Of a stretch of DNA of 64,000 bases, positions 7,107 to 64,000 are shown one piece after another. The DNA is from Eledone cirrhosa (Eukaryota). The DNA lies in the NCBI GenBank assembly GCA_964016885.1, contig OZ024741.1, forward strand, positions 203,236,001-203,300,000, read 5' to 3'. Every line of letters starts with the position of its first letter. The first letter of the stretch is position 1. The position numbers were made by a program, and so were the translations under genes. Below the pieces are notes generated by a model, which was not told the DNA's origin, did no database searches, and saw only the letters and a program-made list of their open reading frames with translations.

Positions 7107-7226
7107 GTTTACGGCCATATCACGCTGAAAACACCGGTTCTCGTCCTATCACCGAAGTTAAGCAGCGTCGAGCCTATTTAGTACTTAGATGGGTGACCGC
7201 TTGGGAACCCTAGGTGCCGTAAGCAT
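7107..7226 (+). rRNA. 5S rRNA, isolated copy (possibly a pseudogene)
   Basis: GTTTACGGCCATATCACGCTGAAAACACCGGTTCTCGTCC...GTACTTAGATGGGTGACCGCTTGGGAACCCTAGGTGCCGTAAGCA, ~120 nt; terminal helix GTTTACGGC/GCCGTAAGC; box A/C-like internal promoter. Confidence 0.92.
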
Positions 7227-17198: not shown

Positions 17199-17483
<285 letters not shown>

Positions 17484-17541
17484 TATATATATATATATGT
17501 ATATTTATTAAAATAACAGATTAAATTTTAAGCAATGTGTT

Positions 17542-26791: not shown

Positions 26792-28054
<1,263 letters not shown>

Positions 28055-38900: not shown

Positions 38901-39455
38901 CCGGGCGCGGCTGAGGAATCGCTCAGACTGGAGTGTAGTGTCTGCCCCCCCCCCCCATTTCTTCCGTTGCTTGATCCTTTTTTCTTTTTCTTTTTATTTC
39001 CTTCTTTCTTCCTTTTCTGTTCTCTTTAATATTCTGTTTTGTTTTTATTAGATACCTGTTAATTATTTTTATATAATATCAATGGTTTTTCATGTCAATT
39101 GTTTTTAATTTCAATTATTTTATAATAAAATATGTTTTATGTATTCAGAACTGATTCATTCGGGAGAAATCATCAGGAAGCCCTGATGATTTCTCCCGAT
39201 TGAAACAGTTCTAGTCCTGTAGAAGCCTTTTCTATATTAAATATATATATTATTATTATTACTATATATATATATATATATAGATGAGTTTCTACAGGAC
39301 TAGAACTGTTTCATTCTTTAGAAATCATCAGATGATTTCTAAAGAATGAAACAGTTCTAGTCCTGTAAAATCTCATCTATATTAAAACTGTTATACTCTG
39401 CAATGTATTGAGTACCTTACTTACTGTGGTTACCTCCGATTCAACCCGGAATAAC

Positions 39456-48861: not shown

Positions 48862-48867
<6 letters not shown>

Positions 48868-49618
48868 TTTTATTCCAATAACTTATTTTAGTTATTGTTC
48901 GCTCTAGGCTGAGGTATCTTGTCTCTAAAGCGAAGAAATACCTATGATTCCTAGCAGACAACTGACGATGGATATTCCTCTCCTTCGCCCGTAACTTTTA
49001 TTTTCCATTATACTTAATTGCAACCACACAGCTCACCATTTTATTCATATAAGCTTCCTTCTTCGCTGTGACCCGTCTCTTTTCTCTCCCCTTGTTACTA
49101 TCCTCTCTCTCCCCTTTCTCTCCCCCTTCTCCCTCTTACTTTCGCTCACCCCCTCTGCTAGCCACCTTCTCTCGGCTAGCCTGCCACTATAACTATCGCT
49201 TTCTTGCTTCCTCTTACTTTCACTCACTTCCTCTCTGCTAGTCATCCTCTCTCCGCTAGCTCACTGTACGCAGTCTCTTCTCTCGCTAACACTGCTACAG
49301 CTAAGACGTGTCTTTTTCTCTCGTCAAAATTCGCCAGTTTTTACGTTCGAAATGAGTTGTTGACTTGATATTTTCCCTATTTTCCTCTCTTTACGTTGCT
49401 TCACCCTTCGTATCTGTTTACATGTTTTTACTCTCTCTCTCCCTTTTTTTAATCCCAATAACTTATTTTAGTTATTGTTCGCTCTAGGCTGAGGTATCTT
49501 GTCTCTAACGCGAAGAAATACCTATGATTCCTAGCAGACAACTGACGATGGATATTCCTCTCTTTCGCCCGCAACTTTTATTTTTTATATACTTAATTGC
49601 AACCACACAGCTCGCCAT

Positions 49619-49620
<2 letters not shown>
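48862..49620 (+). mobile_element. Non-coding element with ~170-bp terminal direct repeats (offset 580) between (TA)n tracts; each repeat holds a candidate rearranged hammerhead
   Basis: 48875-49040 matches 49455-49618; see findings for the pairing. Confidence 0.7.
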
Positions 49621-49683
<63 letters not shown>

Positions 49684-49688
<5 letters not shown>

Positions 49689-52600
49689 ATAAATGCTCTG
49701 AAATAGCGATATATATATGAATATAGACATAGAATATTCGAAAATATTCTGTATGTTTATAATAAACATTTTGAAGACCTAATCGCTATAGAATAGAATA
49801 CGTCACGTATTACAATTAGATTCTCGATAAAAGCAAGGGAAGTAATCTACGCGTTTCATTCTTGTTAGAATTCATCAGGACTACATATCCAGTGCTTTTA
49901 TCGAGAATGACACAGCTAGAGACTTATAGAATACTTAGCTGTGTACAGGAACTGGTTTGAAAGAGCGGTTGCCGGTCCGGCAGAAATTAGAAATTGGAAT
50001 AAATGCTCTGAAATAGCGATATATATATGAATATAGACATAGAATATTCGAAAATATTCTGTATGTTTATAATAAACATTTTGAAGACCTAATCGCTATA
50101 GAATAGAATACGTCACGTATTACAATTAGATTCTCGATAAAAGCAAGGGAAGTAATCTACGCGTTTCATTCTTGTTAGAATTCATCAGGACTACATATCC
50201 AGTGCTTTTATCGAGAATGACACAGCTAGAGACTTATAGAATACTTAGCTGTGTACAGGAACTGGTTTGAAAGAGCGGTTGCCGGTCCGGCAGAAATTAG
50301 AAATTGGAATAAATGCTCTGAAATAGCGATATATATATGAATATAGACATAGAATATTCGAAAATATTCTGTATGTTTATAATAAACATTTTGAAGACCT
50401 AATCGCTATAGAATAGAATACGTCACGTATTACAATTAGATTCTCGATAAAAGCAAGGGAAGTAATCTACGCGTTTCATTCTTGTTAGAATTCATCAGGA
50501 CTACATATCCAGTGCTTTTATCGAGAATGACACAGCTAGAGACTTATAGAATACTTAGCTGTGTACAGGAACTGGTTTGAAAGAGCGGTTGCCGGTCCGG
50601 CAGAAATTAGAAATTGGAATAAATGCTCTGAAATAGCGATATATATATGAATATAGACATAGAATATTCGAAAATATTCTGTATGTTTATAATAAACATT
50701 TTGAAGACCTAATCGCTATAGAATAGAATACGTCACGTATTACAATTAGATTCTCGATAAAAGCAAGGGAAGTAATCTACGCGTTTCATTCTTGTTAGAA
50801 TTCATCAGGACTACATATCCAGTGCTTTTATCGAGAATGACACAGCTAGAGACTTATAGAATACTTAGCTGTGTACAGGAACTGGTTTGAAAGAGCGGTT
50901 GCCGGTCCGGCAGAAATTAGAAATTACTTCCCTTGCTTTTATCGAGAATCTAATTGTAATACGTGACGTATTCTATTCTATAGCGATTAGGTCTTCAAAA
51001 TGTTTATTATAAACATACAGAATATTTTCGAATATTCTATGTCTATATTCATATATATATCGCTATTTCAGAGCATTTATTCCAATTTCTAATTTCTGCC
51101 GGACCGGCAACCGCTCTTTCAAACCAGTTCCTGTACACAGCTAAGTATTCTATAAGTCTCTAGCTGTGTCATTCTCGATAAAAGCACTGGATATGTAGTC
51201 CTGATGAATTCTAACAAGAATGAAACGCGTAGATTACTTCCCTTGCTTTTATCGAGAATCTAATTGTAATACGTGACGTATTCTATTCTATAGCGATTAG
51301 GTCTTCAAAATGTTTATTATAAACATACAGAATATTTTCGAATATTCTATGTCTATATTCATATATATATCGCTATTTCAGAGCATTTATTCCAATTTCT
51401 AATTTCTGCCGGACCGGCAACCGCTCTTTCAAACCAGTTCCTGTACACAGCTAAGTATTCTATAAGTCTCTAGCTGTGTCATTCTCGATAAAAGCACTGG
51501 ATATGTAGTCCTGATGAATTCTAACAAGAATGAAACGCGTAGATTACTTCCCTTGCTTTTATCGAGAATCTAATTGTAATACGTGACGTATTCTATTCTA
51601 TAGCGATTAGGTCTTCAAAATGTTTATTATAAACATACAGAATATTTTCGAATATTCTATGTCTATATTCATATATATATCGCTATTTCAGAGCATTTAT
51701 TCCAATTTCTAATTTCTGCCGGACCGGCAACCGCTCTTTCAAACCAGTTCCTGTACACAGCTAAGTATTCTATAAGTCTCTAGCTGTGTCATTCTCGATA
51801 AAAGCACTGGATATGTAGTCCTGATGAATTCTAACAAGAATGAAACGCGTAGATTACTTCCCTTGCTTTTATCGAGAATCTAATTGTAATACGTGACGTA
51901 TTCTATTCTATAGCGATTAGGTCTTCAAAATGTTTATTATAAACATACAGAATATTTTCGAATATTCTATGTCTATATTCATATATATATCGCTATTTCA
52001 GAGCATTTATTCCAATTTCTAATTTCTGCCGGACCGGCAACCGCTCTTTCAAACCAGTTCCTGTACACAGCTAAGTATTCTATAAGTCTCTAGCTGTGTC
52101 ATTCTCGATAAAAGCACTGGATATGTAGTCCTGATGAATTCTAACAAGAATGAAACGCGTAGATTACTTCCCTTGCTTTTATCGAGAATCTAATTGTAAT
52201 ACGTGACGTATTCTATTCTATAGCGATTAGGTCTTCAAAATGTTTATTATAAACATACAGAATATTTTCGAATATTCTATGTCTATATTCATATATATAT
52301 CGCTATTTCAGAGCATTTATTCCAATTTCTAATTTCTGCCGGACCGGCAACCGCTCTTTCAAACCAGTTCCTGTACACAGCTAAGTATTCTATAAGTCTC
52401 TAGCTGTGTCATTCTCGATAAAAGCACTGGATATGTAGTCCTGATGAATTCTAACAAGAATGAAACGCGTAGATTACTTCCCTTGCTTTTATCGAGAATC
52501 TAATTGTAATACGTGACGTATTCTATTCTATAGCGATTAGGTCTTCAAAATGTTTATTATAAACATACAGAATATTTTCGAATATTCTATGTCTATATTC

Positions 52601-54147
52601 ATATATATATCGCTATTTCAGAGCATTTATTCCAATTTCTAATTTCTGCCGGACCGGCAACCGCTCTTTCAAACCAGTTCCTGTACACAGCTAAGTATTC
52701 TATAAGTCTCTAGCTGTGTCATTCTCGATAAAAGCACTGGATATGTAGTCCTGATGAATTCTAACAAGAATGAAACGCGTAGATTACTTCCCTTGCTTTT
52801 ATCGAGAATCTAATTGTAATACGTGACGTATTCTATTCTATAGCGATTAGGTCTTCAAAATGTTTATTATAAACATACAGAATATTTTCGAATATTCTAT
52901 GTCTATATTCATATATATATCGCTATTTCAGAGCATTTATTCCAATTTCTAATTTCTGCCGGACCGGCAACCGCTCTTTCAAACCAGTTCCTGTACACAG
53001 CTAAGTATTCTATAAGTCTCTAGCTGTGTCATTCTCGATAAAAGCACTGGATATGTAGTCCTGATGAATTCTAACAAGAATGAAACGCGTAGATTACTTC
53101 CCTTGCTTTTATCGAGAATCTAATTGTAATACGTGACGTATTCTATTCTATAGCGATTAGGTCTTCAAAATGTTTATTATAAACATACAGAATATTTTCG
53201 AATATTCTATGTCTATATTCATATATATATCGCTATTTCAGAGCATTTATTCCAATTTCTAATTTCTGCCGGACCGGCAACCGCTCTTTCAAACCAGTTC
53301 CTGTACACAGCTAAGTATTCTATAAGTCTCTAGCTGTGTCATTCTCGATAAAAGCACTGGATATGTAGTCCTGATGAATTCTAACAAGAATGAAACGCGT
53401 AGATTACTTCCCTTGCTTTTATCGAGAATCTAATTGTAATACGTGACGTATTCTATTCTATAGCGATTAGGTCTTCAAAATGTTTATTATAAACATACAG
53501 AATATTTTCGAATATTCTATGTCTATATTCATATATATATCGCTATTTCAGAGCATTTATTCCAATTTCTAATTTCTGCCGGACCGGCAACCGCTCTTTC
53601 AAACCAGTTCCTGTACACAGCTAAGTATTCTATAAGTCTCTAGCTGTGTCATTCTCGATAAAAGCACTGGATATGTAGTCCTGATGAATTCTAACAAGAA
53701 TGAAACGCGTAGATTACTTCCCTTGCTTTTATCGAGAATCTAATTGTAATACGTGACGTATTCTATTCTATAGCGATTAGGTCTTCAAAATGTTTATTAT
53801 AAACATACAGAATATTTTCGAATATTCTATGTCTATATTCATATATATATCGCTATTTCAGAGCATTTATTCCAATTTCTAATTTCTGCCGGACCGGCAA
53901 CCGCTCTTTCAAACCAGTTCCTGTACACAGCTAAGTATTCTATAAGTCTCTAGCTGTGTCATTCTCGATAAAAGCACTGGATATGTAGTCCTGATGAATT
54001 CTAACAAGAATGAAACGCGTAGATTACTTCCCTTGCTTTTATCGAGAATCTAATTGTAATACGTGACGTATTCTATTCTATAGCGATTAGGTCTTCAAAA
54101 TGTTTATTATAAACATACAGAATATTTTCGAATATTCTATGTCTATA

Positions 54148-54148
<1 letters not shown>
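49684..54148. mobile_element. Retrozyme-like array of 310-bp units with one hammerhead per unit: 4 units minus-sense (49684-50925) and ~10.4 units plus-sense (50923-54148)
   Basis: Period exactly 310; CTGATGA at 51201+310n (n=0-9) and TCATCAG at 49872+310n (n=0-3); no ORF; (TA)n on both flanks. Confidence 0.9.
51195..51237 (+). ncRNA. Minimal type I hammerhead ribozyme (representative copy of the array)
   Basis: gtagtc-CTGATGA-attct(aaca)agaat-GAAA-cgcg-TA^gattac; palindromic ACGCGT stem III; predicted cleavage after 51231. Confidence 0.92.
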
Positions 54149-54191
<43 letters not shown>

Positions 54192-57119: not shown

Positions 57120-57993
57120 AGGAAACCAAACGACAACCTGCACTACATCCACTGCCGCTCTAACCATCCTAGAAACATCACCAATAACCTGGTTAAAAAC
57201 ATCCCCCTCCGCATATCTCATTTGTCCGCTAATGAGCAGATATTCGACGAACATGCGCTTCATTACAACCAGGCCCTCAAGCGGAGTGGCTTCCGGGAGG
57301 AAATATCCTTTTATCCAGCTTCCCTTAGCGGAACCAGCAGGCGACACCGCTGCTCACGCAACGTAACGTGGTTCAATCCTCCCCATAATGCCGAGGTGGC
57401 AACACCTATCGGGAAAATCTTCTTTAGGCTCCTCGAAAAAGACTTCCCACTACAACACCGCTACCACAACATAATCAACAAAAACACCATCAAACTCTCC
57501 TACAGCAGCACACCTAACTTCGCACAAAACATCGTCTCCTCAAACAACAAAAAACTCAACCCCTATGGAAGAAACAACCTAGACATCAGTGGAGAGCCGA
57601 TAGATCTACGTGCCCCCTCAACAACAAATGCCGAGAACGTAACGTGATCTACCAGTGCAACATGTTGAGGACGGACACCTCCAACAAAGCTTATATAGGA
57701 TTAACTGCGTGTGACTTCAAGACCCGGCTCTACCAACACCGACATACCTTCCGAAACCGGTCCGGCGACATGCCACTACACTTTCGGGCCACGTCTGGGA
57801 CCTCCAAGATAATAATATAACCTACAATCTCACTTGGAGCTTACTGTCCAGAGCTAACTCTTACACGGGAGGACGCCGTCCGTGTAACTTATGCTCGGAG
57901 GAAACATTACAAATGGTGTTTTCGAAGAACCAACCCCTAAACAAGAAAGACGAACTGGTAACCGCATGCAAACATAGATTGCGTAGGACTTAA
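57120..57993 (+). pseudogene. Naiad-type PLE RT thumb plus GIY-YIG endonuclease, frameshifted
   Basis: RKPNDNLHYIHCRSNHP...RNVTWFNPP...IKLSYS; shifted frames give NVIYQC...AYIGLT.CDFKTRLYQH and TTLSGHVWDL...CNLCSEE...LNKKDELVTACKHR*. Confidence 0.9.
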
Positions 57994-58968: not shown

Positions 58969-59238
58969 ACGAAGGAGACGTGGTAAGGAACCAGATGGAC
59001 CATAACGCACCAGAGTACTCAATACTTAGGGTAGTAGAGTGGGTAATAGGAAAATGTTTAACCCCGATGGCAGAGCTCAAGCCGTTTCGACGGCTATTTC
59101 TGGACGCAGAAATAGCCGTCGAAACGGCTTGAACTCTGCCGCAGGGTTAAACATTTTCCTATTACCCACTCTACTACCCTAAGTATTGAGTACTCTGGTG
59201 CGTTATGGTCCATCTGGTTCCTTACCACGTCTCCTTCG

Positions 59239-59375
<137 letters not shown>

Positions 59376-59504
59376 AAGTTATATTTAAAATTGTTGGGTT
59401 ACAACTAGTAAATATTTATAACTGATATAAAAGCACTCGACAAATACTTGGAGTATATTTACAATATTAAATAAATGGAAAACTATATTTATAAAACCAT
59501 ATTT

Positions 59505-59568
59505 ATTTCATTATATATATTTCGGGGATATCATATTAACAATATGCTATGCCTTCATCAGACAAAAT
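59505..59568 (-). ncRNA. Type I hammerhead in the 3' pLTR
   Basis: attttgt-CTGATGA-...catatt/aatatg...-GAAA-tatata-TA^atgaaat. Confidence 0.8.
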
Positions 59569-59932
59569 ACAATATAAACAGTTTTATAGATAAATATATT
59601 CGACATACCGTAATAAACATCAACTTCATTTGAAGAGGTTCACTCTAGCAGTGAAAATACAGAGAGAAAGAAAGAGAGAGAGAAAAGAGGGAAATAAGAA
59701 AGAAAGAAAGACGAAACGAAGAAAAGGAAGAAAAAGAAGAAAAAGAAGAAATGCATGGGACAAAATAGAGAGATGGAAAAATAGATAAAGCGAAGAGCTT
59801 CATGTAAAGAGACCGAAAGAGATATATATATATATAGAGAGAGAGGAAATAGAGATAGATACATATATAAATATAGATATAGAAAAATTAGGTAGTGGGA
59901 GGTCATTTTGAGTAAGTGTATCAATGATGCAT

Positions 59933-59967
<35 letters not shown>

Positions 59968-61087
59968 GCTCAAGTATTAATGTAAGGGAGATATAGAGAG
60001 ATATAGAGAGATATAGAGAGAGAAAAATTTAAAAATAGCCAGACATATTCGAGGCGTAGAAAACCCTATGTTTTAATGTATTAGTATTTATAAAACTTAC
60101 ACTATATTGTAAATATCAGTATTCCTGAATGAAACAAGTATTCACAATGCGTGAAAATTCATTATCTTATGTTTAGTTTTTTAAAAAATTCATATGTCTA
60201 TGTGAATCCAACTGATTCACTCCGCAAATTCAAAGTTACCGGAAAACATTCTCAATGTGGTATAAACATTTGAGCGTATTATTATTCTTGCGATTACTCT
60301 ACAAGATTATCTATCAAGCAGAAATAGAGAGCAGATTTCAATATACTAATCGAAAATATATATTATATTATAAGCAGAGATAACAATAATGATAATAAGT
60401 AAAAATATATAAAAATATAAAAATATAGAATAGAAAACTAAAAAAGAATATTACGAAAGAATATTACATAATAAAAATATTGCATATTAAAAATACTATG
60501 TTTTAAAATTATTACGTATTAAAACTTTACATATAAAAATATTAAAAATAAAAATAAAATAAAATAAAATAAAAAAAAAATAAAAAATAAAAATATAAAA
60601 ATATTATAGAATACTACAATACTAAAAGAATAAAAATAAAAATAAAAATAAAAATAAAAATAAAAAAAATAAAAATAAAAATAAAATAAAAATAAAAAAT
60701 AAACCACAAAGAACAACCCTTCAAGGTTAATTGACAATATATTGCCAAGTTCACTACAAGACAAAGCCAAAATTATCTATCAAATCACATCTAGCAAGGA
60801 ATATCGCAAAAAAAAAAAAAGGTTATGATGTCCAATAATGTCTACATATGTTCCTATATTTAATATATAAGTTTATCAAGTGTAAGGTTAATTCATAAAA
60901 TTTGGAGCATCGGCTTTTAGGGTAGCTTAATTTTTCATGAGGAATGTTTAGATAAAAATAAAAATAAAAAATAAATACAATAAAAATAAATACAATAAAA
61001 TAAACAGTAAAAAGAGGGAATCAAAGATTTAGGAATCAAAAGATTTATCGGCTAGTTCTCATATAAATATAAATCAAACTAAATATA

Positions 61088-63301
61088 CTACATTTTAAAT
61101 TTAAATTTATATTTAAACGTTGAGTTTAATCTATGTTTGCAACAACTGAATAAATTTGTCCGTAGGTTAAGGGAATTTTTAGATTTTAGTATAAAGAATA
61201 TCTCCTCTGCGCAGAGGTCACATGTCTCAGAGGATGAATTAAAAGGAATCCCTCTTGAGACTATATTCCAAGCCGTCGAATATCTAACGTTATCTAGCTT
61301 AAGTTGCCAGAGTACACCTGATAGTGCCGTTGAAGATTTTTTATTTGGATCTGTGAAAGAATTCTTGTGGTTATTATAGCGAAGTTTAAATTCCGTCGAT
61401 GTGGAACCGACGTAGTTAAAAGAATTAGAGTCAGTATTAACATTACAATTGTATACTATATTTTTAACTAAGCAGTTGTTATTTAACGGACATTTAGATC
61501 TATCTCTACAGTTGCATTTGTTAACTTGTATATTATTTATGCTATTATCAGTAGTTTTTAAGTTCCTATTATTTATTCTATTAATATTTTGTGCTAAATT
61601 TTTGGTGGATGAATAGGTTAATTTAATTGTATGCCTATTGAAGATTGAGTGGTACCTATGTGTTCTAGGGAAGCGATTATCAAGAGCTTTGAAAAATAAT
61701 TTAGCGATGTGGGTTTTAATGTTTAGTGAGAAAGGGGGGGCAAACCAAATTATGTTCCTAGTTCTATTTCTTTTTTGTCCTTTGGAATTATTGTAATGCT
61801 TTCTATTATAGTTGTTAATGTTGTTGCCATAATTAAAAAAGTTGTTACTTTGTTTAGTTTGTTTATCATTATCTATGTACACAATCTTATCAGCATACCC
61901 TGCCCTAGCTAGTGCATCATTATAGTATTGGGCCTTTTCGTCAAAAATCTTTCTATTCGACGAGATCCTAGAGATACGCTTTTGGACTGAGTTTACTATA
62001 GTGTTTTTGACAGATCTGGGGTGGTTAGAGTTAAAGTTGACATAGTTTAAGTTTTCATTCAACTTGTGAAAAGGATAGTGGAGACATGTGTTGAGATTTA
62101 ATGTTATATCTAGGAAATTGACTATTCTATGGTTGTTCTCAATTTCTATTTTAAGGTTAAAGTAATTAAAAAATTTTGTAATTTGTTTACATTTTCTATT
62201 TAGTTCAGGGTTATTATTATTAATGAGTAAAAGCATGTCATCCCTATATAAACCTCCGGTAGTACCAGGTATTTTCCTATGTAGCGAATTGATTAAAAAT
62301 AAGCCCACAAGGTCAGTTACTTGAGCTGAGTCGGAAGATCCCATAGTTATGTCAAAATTGCTATCTCTATCTGCTCTGGTCCATAATTTGTCATCAAATT
62401 CTATCAAAGTTTTCCTAGCCGATAATATAATATGCATTTCTTTGCTAGTTAGGTCCGTATGTTTGAATGCGTAATTTAGTGCCTTATTTAGTAGACTAGG
62501 GGTAATAGAAGAATAATAGTTAGCTATATCAAGTTGAATAAACCTATTATTATTGTCATATTTAATTTGCCTAAACCACTCAACAACCTCTCCGGTTCCC
62601 TTCCACAAGCTCAGGTTAGATACATAATCCAAGTTCTTAATTTGCAGTATCACCCTGTCAAGAATGTTTTTGCTTAATTTGCCCAGGTCCGATTTTGAAG
62701 GTGCGATTAATCTAACTGGCGGGTCAATCTCAAAATTCCTCTTGTGGTCCTTCATATTGATCTTCGGTTTCCTGGGCACAAAAGGTTGTGTTCTGTTCTC
62801 AATTTCCAACTCATGCATTATACAAGATGCTTCAACATTCATTTTCACAAGTTCGGTCTTATCTGCTACCTTGTATTTTTTCCTCAGCTCTTTCAGTATG
62901 AGGCCATTATACATGTCTTTCTGCACTCCATAGAGGTTGTTGGTCTTGTCAGATTTCACCAAGATCTTCTCAGTTTTCTCTAAGCTCTCAATGTTATCCT
63001 TAATGCCTTTCAGATATTCCTGGCCTTTAAAGTTTCTCTTGAATTTGACCCCTTGTATGATAGAAATTATATCGTTTTCAAAGTCAGATAAAAGTTTGTT
63101 AGGGGGTGGATTTCTTTTAGATTTGAAAACTTTGTTTAAGTCCGAGATATTTTCGTCTGCATTAAATTTATCAAAGTGGAATGCACGCCACCTGATTCTC
63201 CTTATAAAAGAGTCAGATTTATCTATTAGTTGTTTTACAAAGTCTTTGTTTCTAGGTAGAGGTATGTCTTTTAGAGAGGAAGTAATCTTAAAGAATTCCA
63301 T
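61088..63301 (-). CDS. Penelope-like reverse transcriptase plus C-terminal GIY-YIG endonuclease (Naiad-like), 737 aa
   Basis: SLKDIP...RRIRWRA N-terminus, SDKT motif, RT motifs LDIANYY / TMGS / LYRDD / FLDITL, SNHP thumb, CNC..CPL...C linker, NIVY..YVG, CDLC..E, CKHR. Confidence 0.95.
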   Translation of the reverse strand: MEFFKITSSLKDIPLPRNKDFVKQLIDKSDSFIRRIRWRAFHFDKFNADENISDLNKVFKSKRNPPPNKLLSDFENDIISIIQGVKFKRNFKGQEYLKGIKDNIESLEKTEKILVKSDKTNNLYGVQKDMYNGLILKELRKKYKVADKTELVKMNVEASCIMHELEIENRTQPFVPRKPKINMKDHKRNFEIDPPVRLIAPSKSDLGKLSKNILDRVILQIKNLDYVSNLSLWKGTGEVVEWFRQIKYDNNNRFIQLDIANYYSSITPSLLNKALNYAFKHTDLTSKEMHIILSARKTLIEFDDKLWTRADRDSNFDITMGSSDSAQVTDLVGLFLINSLHRKIPGTTGGLYRDDMLLLINNNNPELNRKCKQITKFFNYFNLKIEIENNHRIVNFLDITLNLNTCLHYPFHKLNENLNYVNFNSNHPRSVKNTIVNSVQKRISRISSNRKIFDEKAQYYNDALARAGYADKIVYIDNDKQTKQSNNFFNYGNNINNYNRKHYNNSKGQKRNRTRNIIWFAPPFSLNIKTHIAKLFFKALDNRFPRTHRYHSIFNRHTIKLTYSSTKNLAQNINRINNRNLKTTDNSINNIQVNKCNCRDRSKCPLNNNCLVKNIVYNCNVNTDSNSFNYVGSTSTEFKLRYNNHKNSFTDPNKKSSTALSGVLWQLKLDNVRYSTAWNIVSRGIPFNSSSETCDLCAEEIFFILKSKNSLNLRTNLFSCCKHRLNSTFKYKFKFKM

Positions 63302-63481
63302 TTTTCAGTTATAATATAAAGCGCTCAACAGTATTGGAGCAAGATACATGTAAAGTTATATTTAAAATTGTTGGGTTACAACTAGTAAATATTTATAACT
63401 GATATAAAAGCACTCGACAAATACTTGGAGTATATTTACAATATTAAATAAATGGAAAACTATATTTATAAAACCATATTT

Positions 63482-63545
63482 ATTTCATTATATATATTTC
63501 GGGGATATCATATTAACAATATGCTATGCCTTCATCAGACAAAAT
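63482..63545 (-). ncRNA. Type I hammerhead in the 5' pLTR
   Basis: Same sequence as 59505-59568. Confidence 0.8.
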
Positions 63546-63909
63546 ACAATATAAACAGTTTTATAGATAAATATATTCGACATACCGTAATAAACATCAA
63601 CTTCATTTGAAGAGGTTCACTCTAGCAGTGAAAATACAGAGAGAAAGAAAGAGAGAGAGAAAAGAGGGAAATAAGAAAGAAAGAAAGACGAAACGAAGAA
63701 AAGGAAGAAAAAGAAGAAAAAGAAGAAATGCATGGGACAAAATAGAGAGATGGAAAAATAGATAAAGCGAAGAGCTTCATGTAAAGAGACCGAAAGAGAT
63801 ATATATATATATAGAGAGAGAGGAAATAGAGATAGATACATATATAAATATAGATATAGAAAAATTAGGTAGTGGGAGGTCATTTTGAGTAAGTGTATCA
63901 ATGATGCAT

Positions 63910-63944
<35 letters not shown>

Positions 63945-64000
63945 GCTCAAGTATTAATGTAAGGGAGATATAGAGAGATATAGAGAGATATATATCTATT

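What the first reader, a model, noticed from the sequence alone, without database searches (positions are those of the whole stretch)
49684..54148. 14-copy 310-bp retrozyme-like (viroid-like circular RNA) array
Seen: non-coding 310-bp units, identical as far as I can read, each with one minimal type I hammerhead with a palindromic ACGCGT stem III. Known: this architecture defines metazoan non-LTR retrozymes, and minimal PLE-type HHRs cleave as dimers, which a tandem transcript supplies. Inference: transcripts are cut into 310-nt monomers, circularised, and copied by rolling-circle reverse transcription using a PLE RT such as the intact one ~7 kb away. Unit identity implies a very recent event.
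Basis: partly seen in the sequence, partly recalled or inferred. Interest (0 to 1): 0.85.

Follow-up and report, generated by a model that had tools for sequence, protein, structure and literature searches.

The report
Two-armed retrozyme with Penelope insertion footprint
This is one of more than a thousand recent insertions of a 310-base non-coding repeat carrying a hammerhead (self-cutting RNA) motif, laid down as two back-to-back multi-copy arms with fixed ends like those of Penelope-type jumping genes, which likely means two reverse transcriptases copied one small RNA, probably a circle, from both sides of a DNA break.

Summary
Real, and richer than reported. The 14 hammerheads lie in two back-to-back arms (4.0 and 10.45 units) inside (TA)n, not in one tandem run. 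The family has at least 1,234 dispersed insertions. Of 111 arrays dissected, 92 have the same two-arm layout, and 88 of these end at two fixed sites about 26-40 nt apart. This is the inverted-copy-plus-tail signature of Penelope-like elements (PLEs), whose enzyme starts at two adjacent internal RNA sites (PMC11167929). Both arms share one haplotype in 48 of 50 arrays (shuffled mean 5.5). Neither arm can be a copy of the other in 14 of 88. Cut-site passes are seamless (972). A monomer circle is the best template but is inferred; no RNA data were available. The hammerhead is canonical type I, not minimal. The neighbouring PLE (Hydra clade) has a different, ~92-nt tail and is not shown to be the helper. 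Verdict: a metazoan non-LTR retrozyme whose insertions record PLE twin priming, a step the papers read here only propose. The scan had already reported this family and reading from other DNA of this genome.

The parts
49619..49682 (.). (TA)n target microsatellite, left part
49683..50925 (-). Arm 1: 4.01 units, 4 hammerhead cores; RNA 3' end at unit phase 165 (the 'long', tail-bearing end) joined to (TA)n. Phase 1 = first base after the predicted cut.
50923..50925 (.). Inner head-to-head junction, 3-nt microhomology (phases 163 and 2). That it lies at the cut site here is chance: 5 of 176 inner ends fall within 5 nt of the cut, 5.7 expected.
50923..54160 (+). Arm 2: 10.45 units, 10 hammerhead cores; RNA 3' end at phase 139, in the unit's own (AU)5 tract (the 'short' end); one mismatch at 54149 next to the junction
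51232..51541 (+). One 310-nt monomer, cut site to cut site (predicted linear or circular RNA)
51171..51259 (+). Type I hammerhead: distal stem I 16 bp (51171-51186 with 51244-51259), internal loop, helix I 6 bp (51195-51200 with 51232-51237), core 51201-51207, helix II 51208-51221, GAAA, palindromic helix III 51225-51230, predicted cut after 51231
51290..51403 (+). Candidate PLE-recognition and priming module (phases 59-172): two hairpins with compensatory changes in sister family B, short start site in the AU tract (51361-51370), long start site (51396-51403)
54161..54188 (.). (TA)n target microsatellite, right part
59370..64000 (-). Neighbouring autonomous Hydra-clade PLE (738-aa open frame 61091-63304; pLTR hammerheads at 63538 and 59561; continues past the window into an inverted arm). 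Context only, not shown to be the helper.

Best explanation
The array is one insertion of a young, dispersed, non-coding hammerhead repeat (a non-LTR retrozyme) that was likely written into a cut (TA)n site by a Penelope-like element's enzyme, with both DNA ends predicted to prime reverse transcription at two fixed internal sites of the same RNA, probably a 310-nt circle. Steps: (1) inferred: read-through transcription of an array gives a multimer; (2) inferred by analogy: hammerheads cut as dimers through the palindromic helix III; (3) inferred: the monomer is ligated into a circle; (4) inferred from shown footprints: a PLE endonuclease cuts both strands in (TA)n, and one end pairs with the AU tract (phase ~130-139) while the other primes at phase 165-172; (5) inferred: each RT runs round the template for a variable number of turns; (6) shown: the two cDNAs are joined head to head at random phases, mostly by short microhomology. 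Which PLE family is the helper is open.
For: Dispersal: 2,738 hammerhead hits, 995 long-end and 1,234 short-end junctions, reversed-pattern controls 0. Layout: 10 of 12 loci taken without end selection are two-armed; 92 of 111 overall; 88 of 92 pair a 138-139 end with a 159-172 end; 200 of 214 flanks are (TA)n. An autonomous PLE family in the same genome shows the same layout, with ends at 199 (39 ends) and 259 (37 ends) across 48 loci. Literature signature: inverted 5'-truncated copy, 30-40-bp tail, (TA)n bias (PMC8557442); two adjacent internal RT starts, both strands cut and extended, dimer predicted (PMC11167929). Target DNA overwrote phase 131 in 49 of 83 short ends. One template: same haplotype in both arms in 48 of 50, shuffled mean 5.5, maximum 14. 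Not fold-back: 47 short-in-long, 27 long-in-short, 14 neither, of 88. Monomer bottleneck: 35 array-wide substitutions, 19 private to one of 85 arrays, against 16 intermediate calls in 9 arrays; about 40 unit-specific events unshared between arms against 1 shared in register (hand count). No deletion in 972 passes over the cut site. RNA-level constraint: 6 of 7 array-wide stem changes keep pairing (p 0.0002, or 0.02 for transitions only); 9 of 26 pairs covary in sister family B.
Against: No RNA evidence at all: expression, cleavage and circles were not tested. In vitro, hammerhead mutants did not change PAc insertion and unprocessed RNA was the main substrate (PMC11167929). PLEs make multicopy head-to-tail inserts of non-autonomous elements in a clade that mostly lacks hammerheads (MRC1, PMC8557442), and a 163-bp family-B derivative without a hammerhead is also tandem here (L130-L132). 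L069 shares a unit-specific variant in register; L062 and L084 switch haplotype within an arm; L054 and L073 show repeated sub-variants. So multimeric templates, template switches or later turnover do occur. 18 of 111 arrays have one arm only. Only 1 of 9 frog retrozyme dimers cleaved in the 2026 preprint. Helix II here opens with A-U or U-U, not G-C. An A-to-G excess among array-wide changes is not significant (10 vs 5, p 0.08).
Confidence: 0.68

Rival explanations
1. Same PLE twin priming, but the template is an uncleaved linear multimeric transcript of a homogeneous donor array; the hammerhead is a passenger or acts only in another step.
For: Hammerhead not needed in vitro; hammerhead-less tandem derivatives exist; in-register variants in L069 and L084; seamless cut sites are expected here too.
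Against: 19 private array-wide substitutions need a one-unit bottleneck. Only 1 of about 41 unit-specific events is shared between arms in register. I saw no carried-over donor flank or donor inner junction at the inner ends, but did not count this formally. If most singletons are later mutations or assembly errors, the register test loses force.
Confidence: 0.2
2. The template is a cleaved linear monomer, and multimers arise by repeated RT jumping from the 5' end of the RNA to a 3' end.
For: Explains the one-unit bottleneck. Two array-wide 1-nt insertion haplotypes sit at phases 3-5, next to the cut.
Against: No unit-specific indel at phases 309-2 in 645 passes and no deletion in 972; inner ends are not enriched at the cut (5 of 176, 5.7 expected). 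The insertions are array-wide, as expected for a scar made once at ligation.
Confidence: 0.07
3. Single priming followed by fold-back self-priming of the cDNA, or short inserts later expanded and homogenised as satellite DNA by unequal exchange, or assembly expansion.
For: Self-priming was proposed for head-to-head PLE copies (PMC3846280); satellite growth after insertion is proposed in the 2026 preprint; some long arrays show block duplication (L054, L073).
Against: In 14 of 88 arrays neither arm fits inside the other, and both size orders are common. Each array has its own inner junction and haplotype. Variant frequencies are bimodal. Unit-specific differences are resolved in other arrays.
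Confidence: 0.05

Closest known systems
Metazoan non-LTR retrozymes (Cervera and de la Pena 2020, PMC7229834, parts 2-4 of 6 read, supplement not readable; Li, Clavereau and Pollet 2026, 10.64898/2026.07.22.740005, parts 1-3 of 5 read, supplements closed)
   Same: 150-450-bp low-GC non-coding tandem units, one type I hammerhead each, weak palindromic helix III as in axolotl and newt, thousands of copies, co-occurrence with PLEs, structured monomer.
   Different: In the text I read, the arrays are described as tandem repeats, with no inverted second arm, fixed ends, tail or (TA)n target. The PLE link there rests on co-occurrence and pLTR phylogeny; PMC7761336 (section 9 read) says the repeats show no motif that identifies the helper. 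Circles were shown there and not here.
EN+ Penelope-like elements: PAc/Poseidon (PMC11167929, parts 1-2 of 4 read), Hydra, Neptune, Naiad (PMC8557442, passages and section 11 read), Adineta Penelope (PMC3846280, passages)
   Same: Head-to-head inverted copy, 30-40-nt tail from two internal RT starts, AT-rich or (TA)n targets, microhomology at inner joints, hammerhead upstream of the start sites.
   Different: No ORF; arms of up to 20 or more units; canonical rather than minimal hammerhead. PAc starts without homology to the cut DNA, whereas the short site here pairs with (TA)n over up to 10 nt.
Non-autonomous Chlamys elements such as MRC1 (PMC8557442, one passage)
   Same: Non-coding PLE passengers with multicopy head-to-tail insertions.
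   Different: They share 3' sequence with their autonomous partner and their clade mostly lacks hammerheads; no such sequence partner was found here.
LINE-1 twin priming (recalled, no call)
   Same: Both target ends prime on one RNA and give an inverted 5' arm joined by microhomology.
   Different: In L1 it is a minority outcome with a variable internal site and a poly(A) end; here it is the rule, both sites are fixed, and arms exceed unit length.

Membership tests
Metazoan non-LTR retrozyme | Tandem non-coding unit of 150-450 bp, low GC, no LTR, PBS or PPT | tested here: met
   310 bp, about 34% GC, no ORF of 100 aa in the array; PBS/PPT not searched for formally
Metazoan non-LTR retrozyme | One type I hammerhead per unit | tested here: met
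   14 cores, full stems, Rfam HH9 E 0.0025 (below gathering score)
Metazoan non-LTR retrozyme | Many dispersed genomic copies | tested here: met
Metazoan non-LTR retrozyme | Self-cleavage (monomer or dimer) | not testable with these tools
   Only pairing-preserving variation and a 6-bp helix III dimer duplex of -7.5 kcal/mol
Metazoan non-LTR retrozyme | Expression as linear and circular monomer RNA | not tested
Minimal PLE-type hammerhead (PMC4209133) | Short helix I (4-5 bp), poorly defined loop 1, long helix II (7-8 bp) | tested here: not met
   Helix I 6 bp plus loop plus 16 bp; helix II 4-5 bp
PLE-mobilised insertion | Inverted 5'-truncated copy, head to head | tested here: met
   92 of 111 arrays; 10 of 12 without end selection
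PLE-mobilised insertion | 30-40-bp tail at one end, from two internal RT start sites | tested here: met
   Ends at ~130-139 and 165-172
PLE-mobilised insertion | AT-rich or (TA)n target | tested here: met
   200 of 214 flanks (99 of the arrays were picked by a junction pattern that fixes one flank)
PLE-mobilised insertion | Target-site duplication | tested here: inconclusive
   Cannot be read inside (TA)n
PLE-mobilised insertion | Sequence homology to the pLTR of an autonomous partner | tested here: inconclusive
   None with the Hydra family or the 1,278-aa family; other PLE families not covered
Viroid or viroid-like infectious RNA | RNA-to-RNA replication without a DNA stage | not testable with these tools
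   No hammerhead core on the unit's opposite strand; no hit in metagenome contigs

The most novel reading that the evidence does not exclude
A dimeric Penelope-like enzyme performs double rolling-circle reverse transcription: both ends of one DNA break prime about 35 nt apart on a single ribozyme-made RNA circle. Each retrozyme array is then a fossil record of one circle read in two runs. The same route would explain the tandem-plus-inverted structure of PLEs themselves, whose arms here also exceed unit length.
Probability: 0.45. Interest if true: 0.8.

Novelty: new variant of a known kind. Interest (0 to 1): 0.62.

Why it matters
How animal retrozymes return to the genome, and why PLE copies are tandem and inverted, are both stated as open in the papers read (PMC7229834, PMC7761336, PMC8557442, the 2026 preprint). 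This family gives more than a thousand near-identical insertions with defined start sites, a defined target, a 310-nt substrate and two young intact candidate helpers in the same genome. That makes circle-templated, double-primed retrotransposition testable with the existing in vitro PLE assay. It also defines a short RNA module that may direct an RT to write multimers at (TA)n. Searches that found no prior description: (open-access library only; supplements of the two retrozyme papers unseen).

Tried and rejected
DNA search of the unit in the own genome returned nothing because common words are skipped; patterns were used instead. The window's inner junction at the cut site looked like an RNA 5' end but is chance. 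Arm 1 being exactly 4 units is also not general (inner phases uniform, p 0.14). Pfam finds neither PLE protein, so clades rest on motifs from PMC8557442: DKT, RWR, CxCX5C, CxxC and CxH for the neighbour (Hydra); a CX4CxxC linker with GIY-YIG-like endonuclease for the 1,278-aa family (Neptune/Nematis type). Helper search: no retrozyme-A arm joined directly to a PLE arm among 111 arrays except L179. There a PLE arm passes without (TA)n, through a 3-nt overlap, into 47 inverted bases and 4.75 retrozyme units; this is 1 of 48 loci of that PLE and could also be a later deletion. Hydra loci were seen only 1.5 kb either side of the ORF, so chimeras there could be missed. One locus has a run of N at the joint and is uninformative. 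A-to-I editing signature: inconclusive. No array-wide change in the 12 invariant core positions, but with 35 variants that alone is not significant (chance about 0.25, my calculation). No exact match in metagenome contigs. The host was not identified; 'octopus' and 'cephalopod' in literature searches were my guess from genome character.

Full report
Observation. Tandem Repeats Finder splits the region into two 310-bp arrays, 49683-50925 (4.0 copies) and 50923-54160 (10.4 copies). They are the same unit in opposite orientation: 4 hammerhead cores on the minus strand and 10 on the plus strand, with one mismatch in all, at 54149. The RNA 5' ends meet in the middle with a 3-nt overlap, and the RNA 3' ends face outward into (TA)n. 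I number the unit from the base after the predicted cut (phase 1 = 51232). The ribozyme is a type I hammerhead with a 6-bp helix I, an internal loop, a further 16-bp stem, a 4-5-bp helix II and the palindrome ACGCGT as helix III (Rfam HH9 E 0.0025, below gathering score). PMC4209133 (passages) calls this the canonical metazoan form, active as dimers; it is not the minimal PLE form.

Family. The own genome (3.0 Gb) holds 2,738 exact copies of the window's hammerhead 37-mer, a minority haplotype (24 of 85 arrays). It also holds 995 junctions of phase 165 with (TA)n and 1,234 of phase 139 with (TA)n; reversed-pattern controls gave 0. I dissected the window, the 11 loci behind the first 100 hammerhead hits, 59 arrays from the long-end list, 40 short-end loci picked for lacking an exact long end nearby, and L179. 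111 arrays passed the length and identity filters. 92 are two arms head to head, 1 has a split second arm, and 18 have one arm. Among the 12 loci not chosen by an end, 10 are two-armed. 88 of the 92 pair a 138-139 end with an end at 165 (64), 170 (15), 172 (5), 166 (2), 168 or 159. 200 of 214 flanks are (TA)n. Inner junctions fall at any phase (p 0.14 for uniformity) and mostly carry short overlaps. Median total length is 7.8 units, the longest complete one 31.8, and arm lengths correlate (rho 0.33, p 0.002). In 49 of 83 short ends of haplotypes with C at phase 131 the last unit reads T. The target DNA therefore paired with the RNA's AU tract, the true start lies at about 130-139, and the tail is about 26-40 nt.

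What makes this layout. PLE copies carry an inverted 5'-truncated copy and a 30-40-bp tail at one end, and several clades target (TA)n (PMC8557442, passages and section 11; PMC3846280, passages). The purified anole PLE cuts and extends both strands and starts at two adjacent internal sites whose spacing is the tail; a dimer is predicted (PMC11167929, parts 1-2 of 4). An internal control behaves the same way. A very young autonomous PLE of this genome (4,286-bp unit, 1,278-aa frame, 109 near-identical hits) shows head-to-head arms in (TA)n with ends at positions 199 (39 ends) and 259 (37 ends) across 48 loci, and some arms are longer than one unit. The retrozyme arrays thus carry the PLE footprint directly. 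The retrozyme papers infer the PLE link from co-occurrence and pLTR phylogeny, and a review says the repeats show no motif pointing to the helper.

One template, primed twice. In 48 of 50 arrays with both arms covered twice, the arms share one of 25 haplotypes; shuffled pairing gives 5.5 on average and 14 at most. A fold-back copy would have to fit inside the first arm. The short arm fits in the long in 47 arrays, the long in the short in 27, and neither in 14 of 88, so both arms come from RNA at least in those 14, and no single fold-back order explains the rest.

Circle or multimer. In 85 arrays covered three times or more there are 35 array-wide substitutions, 19 of them private to one array, against 16 intermediate calls in 9 arrays, some of which are alignment ambiguities. 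A variant in every unit of both arms needs a one-unit bottleneck. Where the arms overlap in register (56 kb, first 71 arrays), about 40 unit-specific events are in one arm only and 1 (L069) in both. This is my hand count after merging multi-base events and dropping the ambiguous rows of L054, L076, L087 and L093; L062 and L084 are haplotype switches counted apart. A transcript of an older array should pass its unit-specific changes to both arms. Passes over the cut site are clean (no indel at phases 309-2 in 645; no deletion in 972), which argues against jumping between linear monomers. Against the circle: no RNA data; the anole enzyme does not need its hammerhead in vitro; hammerhead-less tandems exist here and in Chlamydomonas; L054, L062, L069, L073 and L084 show multimeric templates, switches or later turnover. 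I put the monomer circle at about two to one.

Selection on the RNA. Six of 7 array-wide changes in hammerhead stems keep pairing (p 0.0002; 0.02 if only transitions are counted). The only core position that varies array-wide is the free N7, while unit-specific changes do hit the core. A>G outnumbers T>C 10 to 5, which is not significant. A sister family B (about 320 bp, 1,942 pattern hits) shares phases ~59-212 at about 77% identity and has the same two-arm layout in the loci read. Its two hairpins show compensatory changes (3 of 26 pairs). Its hammerhead has a different sequence but the same shape, with 9 of 26 pairs covarying, a longer palindromic helix III, and both C3-G8 and U3-A8 cores (that this pair is a tertiary contact is supported by the C3G/G8C rescue). 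The shared part is the likely enzyme-recognition module.

Helper. The neighbour at 59370-64000 is an intact Hydra-clade PLE with 61 of 61 scored hits at 96-100% identity. It has the same target and layout, but its own hammerhead and ends about 92 nt apart. The 1,278-aa family has a 60-nt tail. One of its 48 loci (L179) runs without (TA)n into retrozyme A and ends at the retrozyme's long site, and another (L233) is head to head with a third retrozyme. L179 could be a later deletion. The helper is unresolved.

Verdict. A real, very young non-LTR retrozyme family whose insertions record PLE twin priming, with good but indirect evidence for a circular monomer template. It is a new variant of a known kind, interest 0.62. 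I reached this reading before consulting the scan's notes. They show the same family and reading reported from other windows of this genome (nothing near this window), which is not independent support. Supplements of PMC7229834 and of the 2026 preprint were not visible and might describe inverted arrays.

Noticed in passing
L093:4217-5019, L075:8018-8518, L103-L132, L156:4646-5063: Sister retrozyme family B (~320 bp, 1,942 pattern hits): same priming module, different hammerhead with C3-G8 and U3-A8 core variants and a palindromic helix III of up to 12 nt; older and more diverged.
   Followed up: partly
L130-L132: 163-bp tandem derivative of family B that keeps the priming module but has lost the hammerhead; at least five units ending in (TA)n.
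   Followed up: no
L047:1900-5460, L063:7090-8800, window 42953 (-) and 43602 (+): Third hammerhead repeat family C (~470-500 bp with an internal TA tract), also head to head in (TA)n, ends about 61 nt apart; related cores in the window.
   Followed up: partly
L233:4979-9191: Family C arm joined head to head to an arm of the 1,278-aa PLE with a 2-nt overlap and no (TA)n: a likely single chimeric insertion.
   Followed up: partly
L175-L182, L203-L242: Very young PLE family (4,286-bp unit, 1,278-aa frame with an asparagine-rich insert, CX4CxxC linker); head-to-head arms, ends fixed 60 nt apart, arms sometimes longer than one unit.
   Followed up: yes
window 17250-17490, 27720-27850, 39180-39450: Short head-to-head insertions of a very abundant hammerhead family (27,663 pattern hits) whose helix II resembles the retrozyme's; unit phases 226-305 align at 72% with its inverted junction, a possible origin of the retrozyme's ribozyme half.
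   Followed up: partly
window 7107-7225: Full-length 5S rRNA copy (106 bits) lying between two (TA)n tracts; possibly retroposed by a PLE enzyme.
   Followed up: no
window 48864-49619: A ~590-bp partial tandem repeat ending in the same (TA)n tract that holds the array's left end; no complete hammerhead core seen.
   Followed up: no
window 57123-57990 and 58970-59240: 5'-truncated second Hydra-like PLE fragment (+ strand, about 40% identity to the neighbour) and a small perfect head-to-head insertion between (TA)n tracts.
   Followed up: no
L043, L049, L070, L077, L095 (C); L076, L087 (T): Two array-wide 1-nt insertion haplotypes 2-5 nt after the cut site, against one other array-wide indel elsewhere (L054): possible ligation scars. 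Post hoc.
   Followed up: partly
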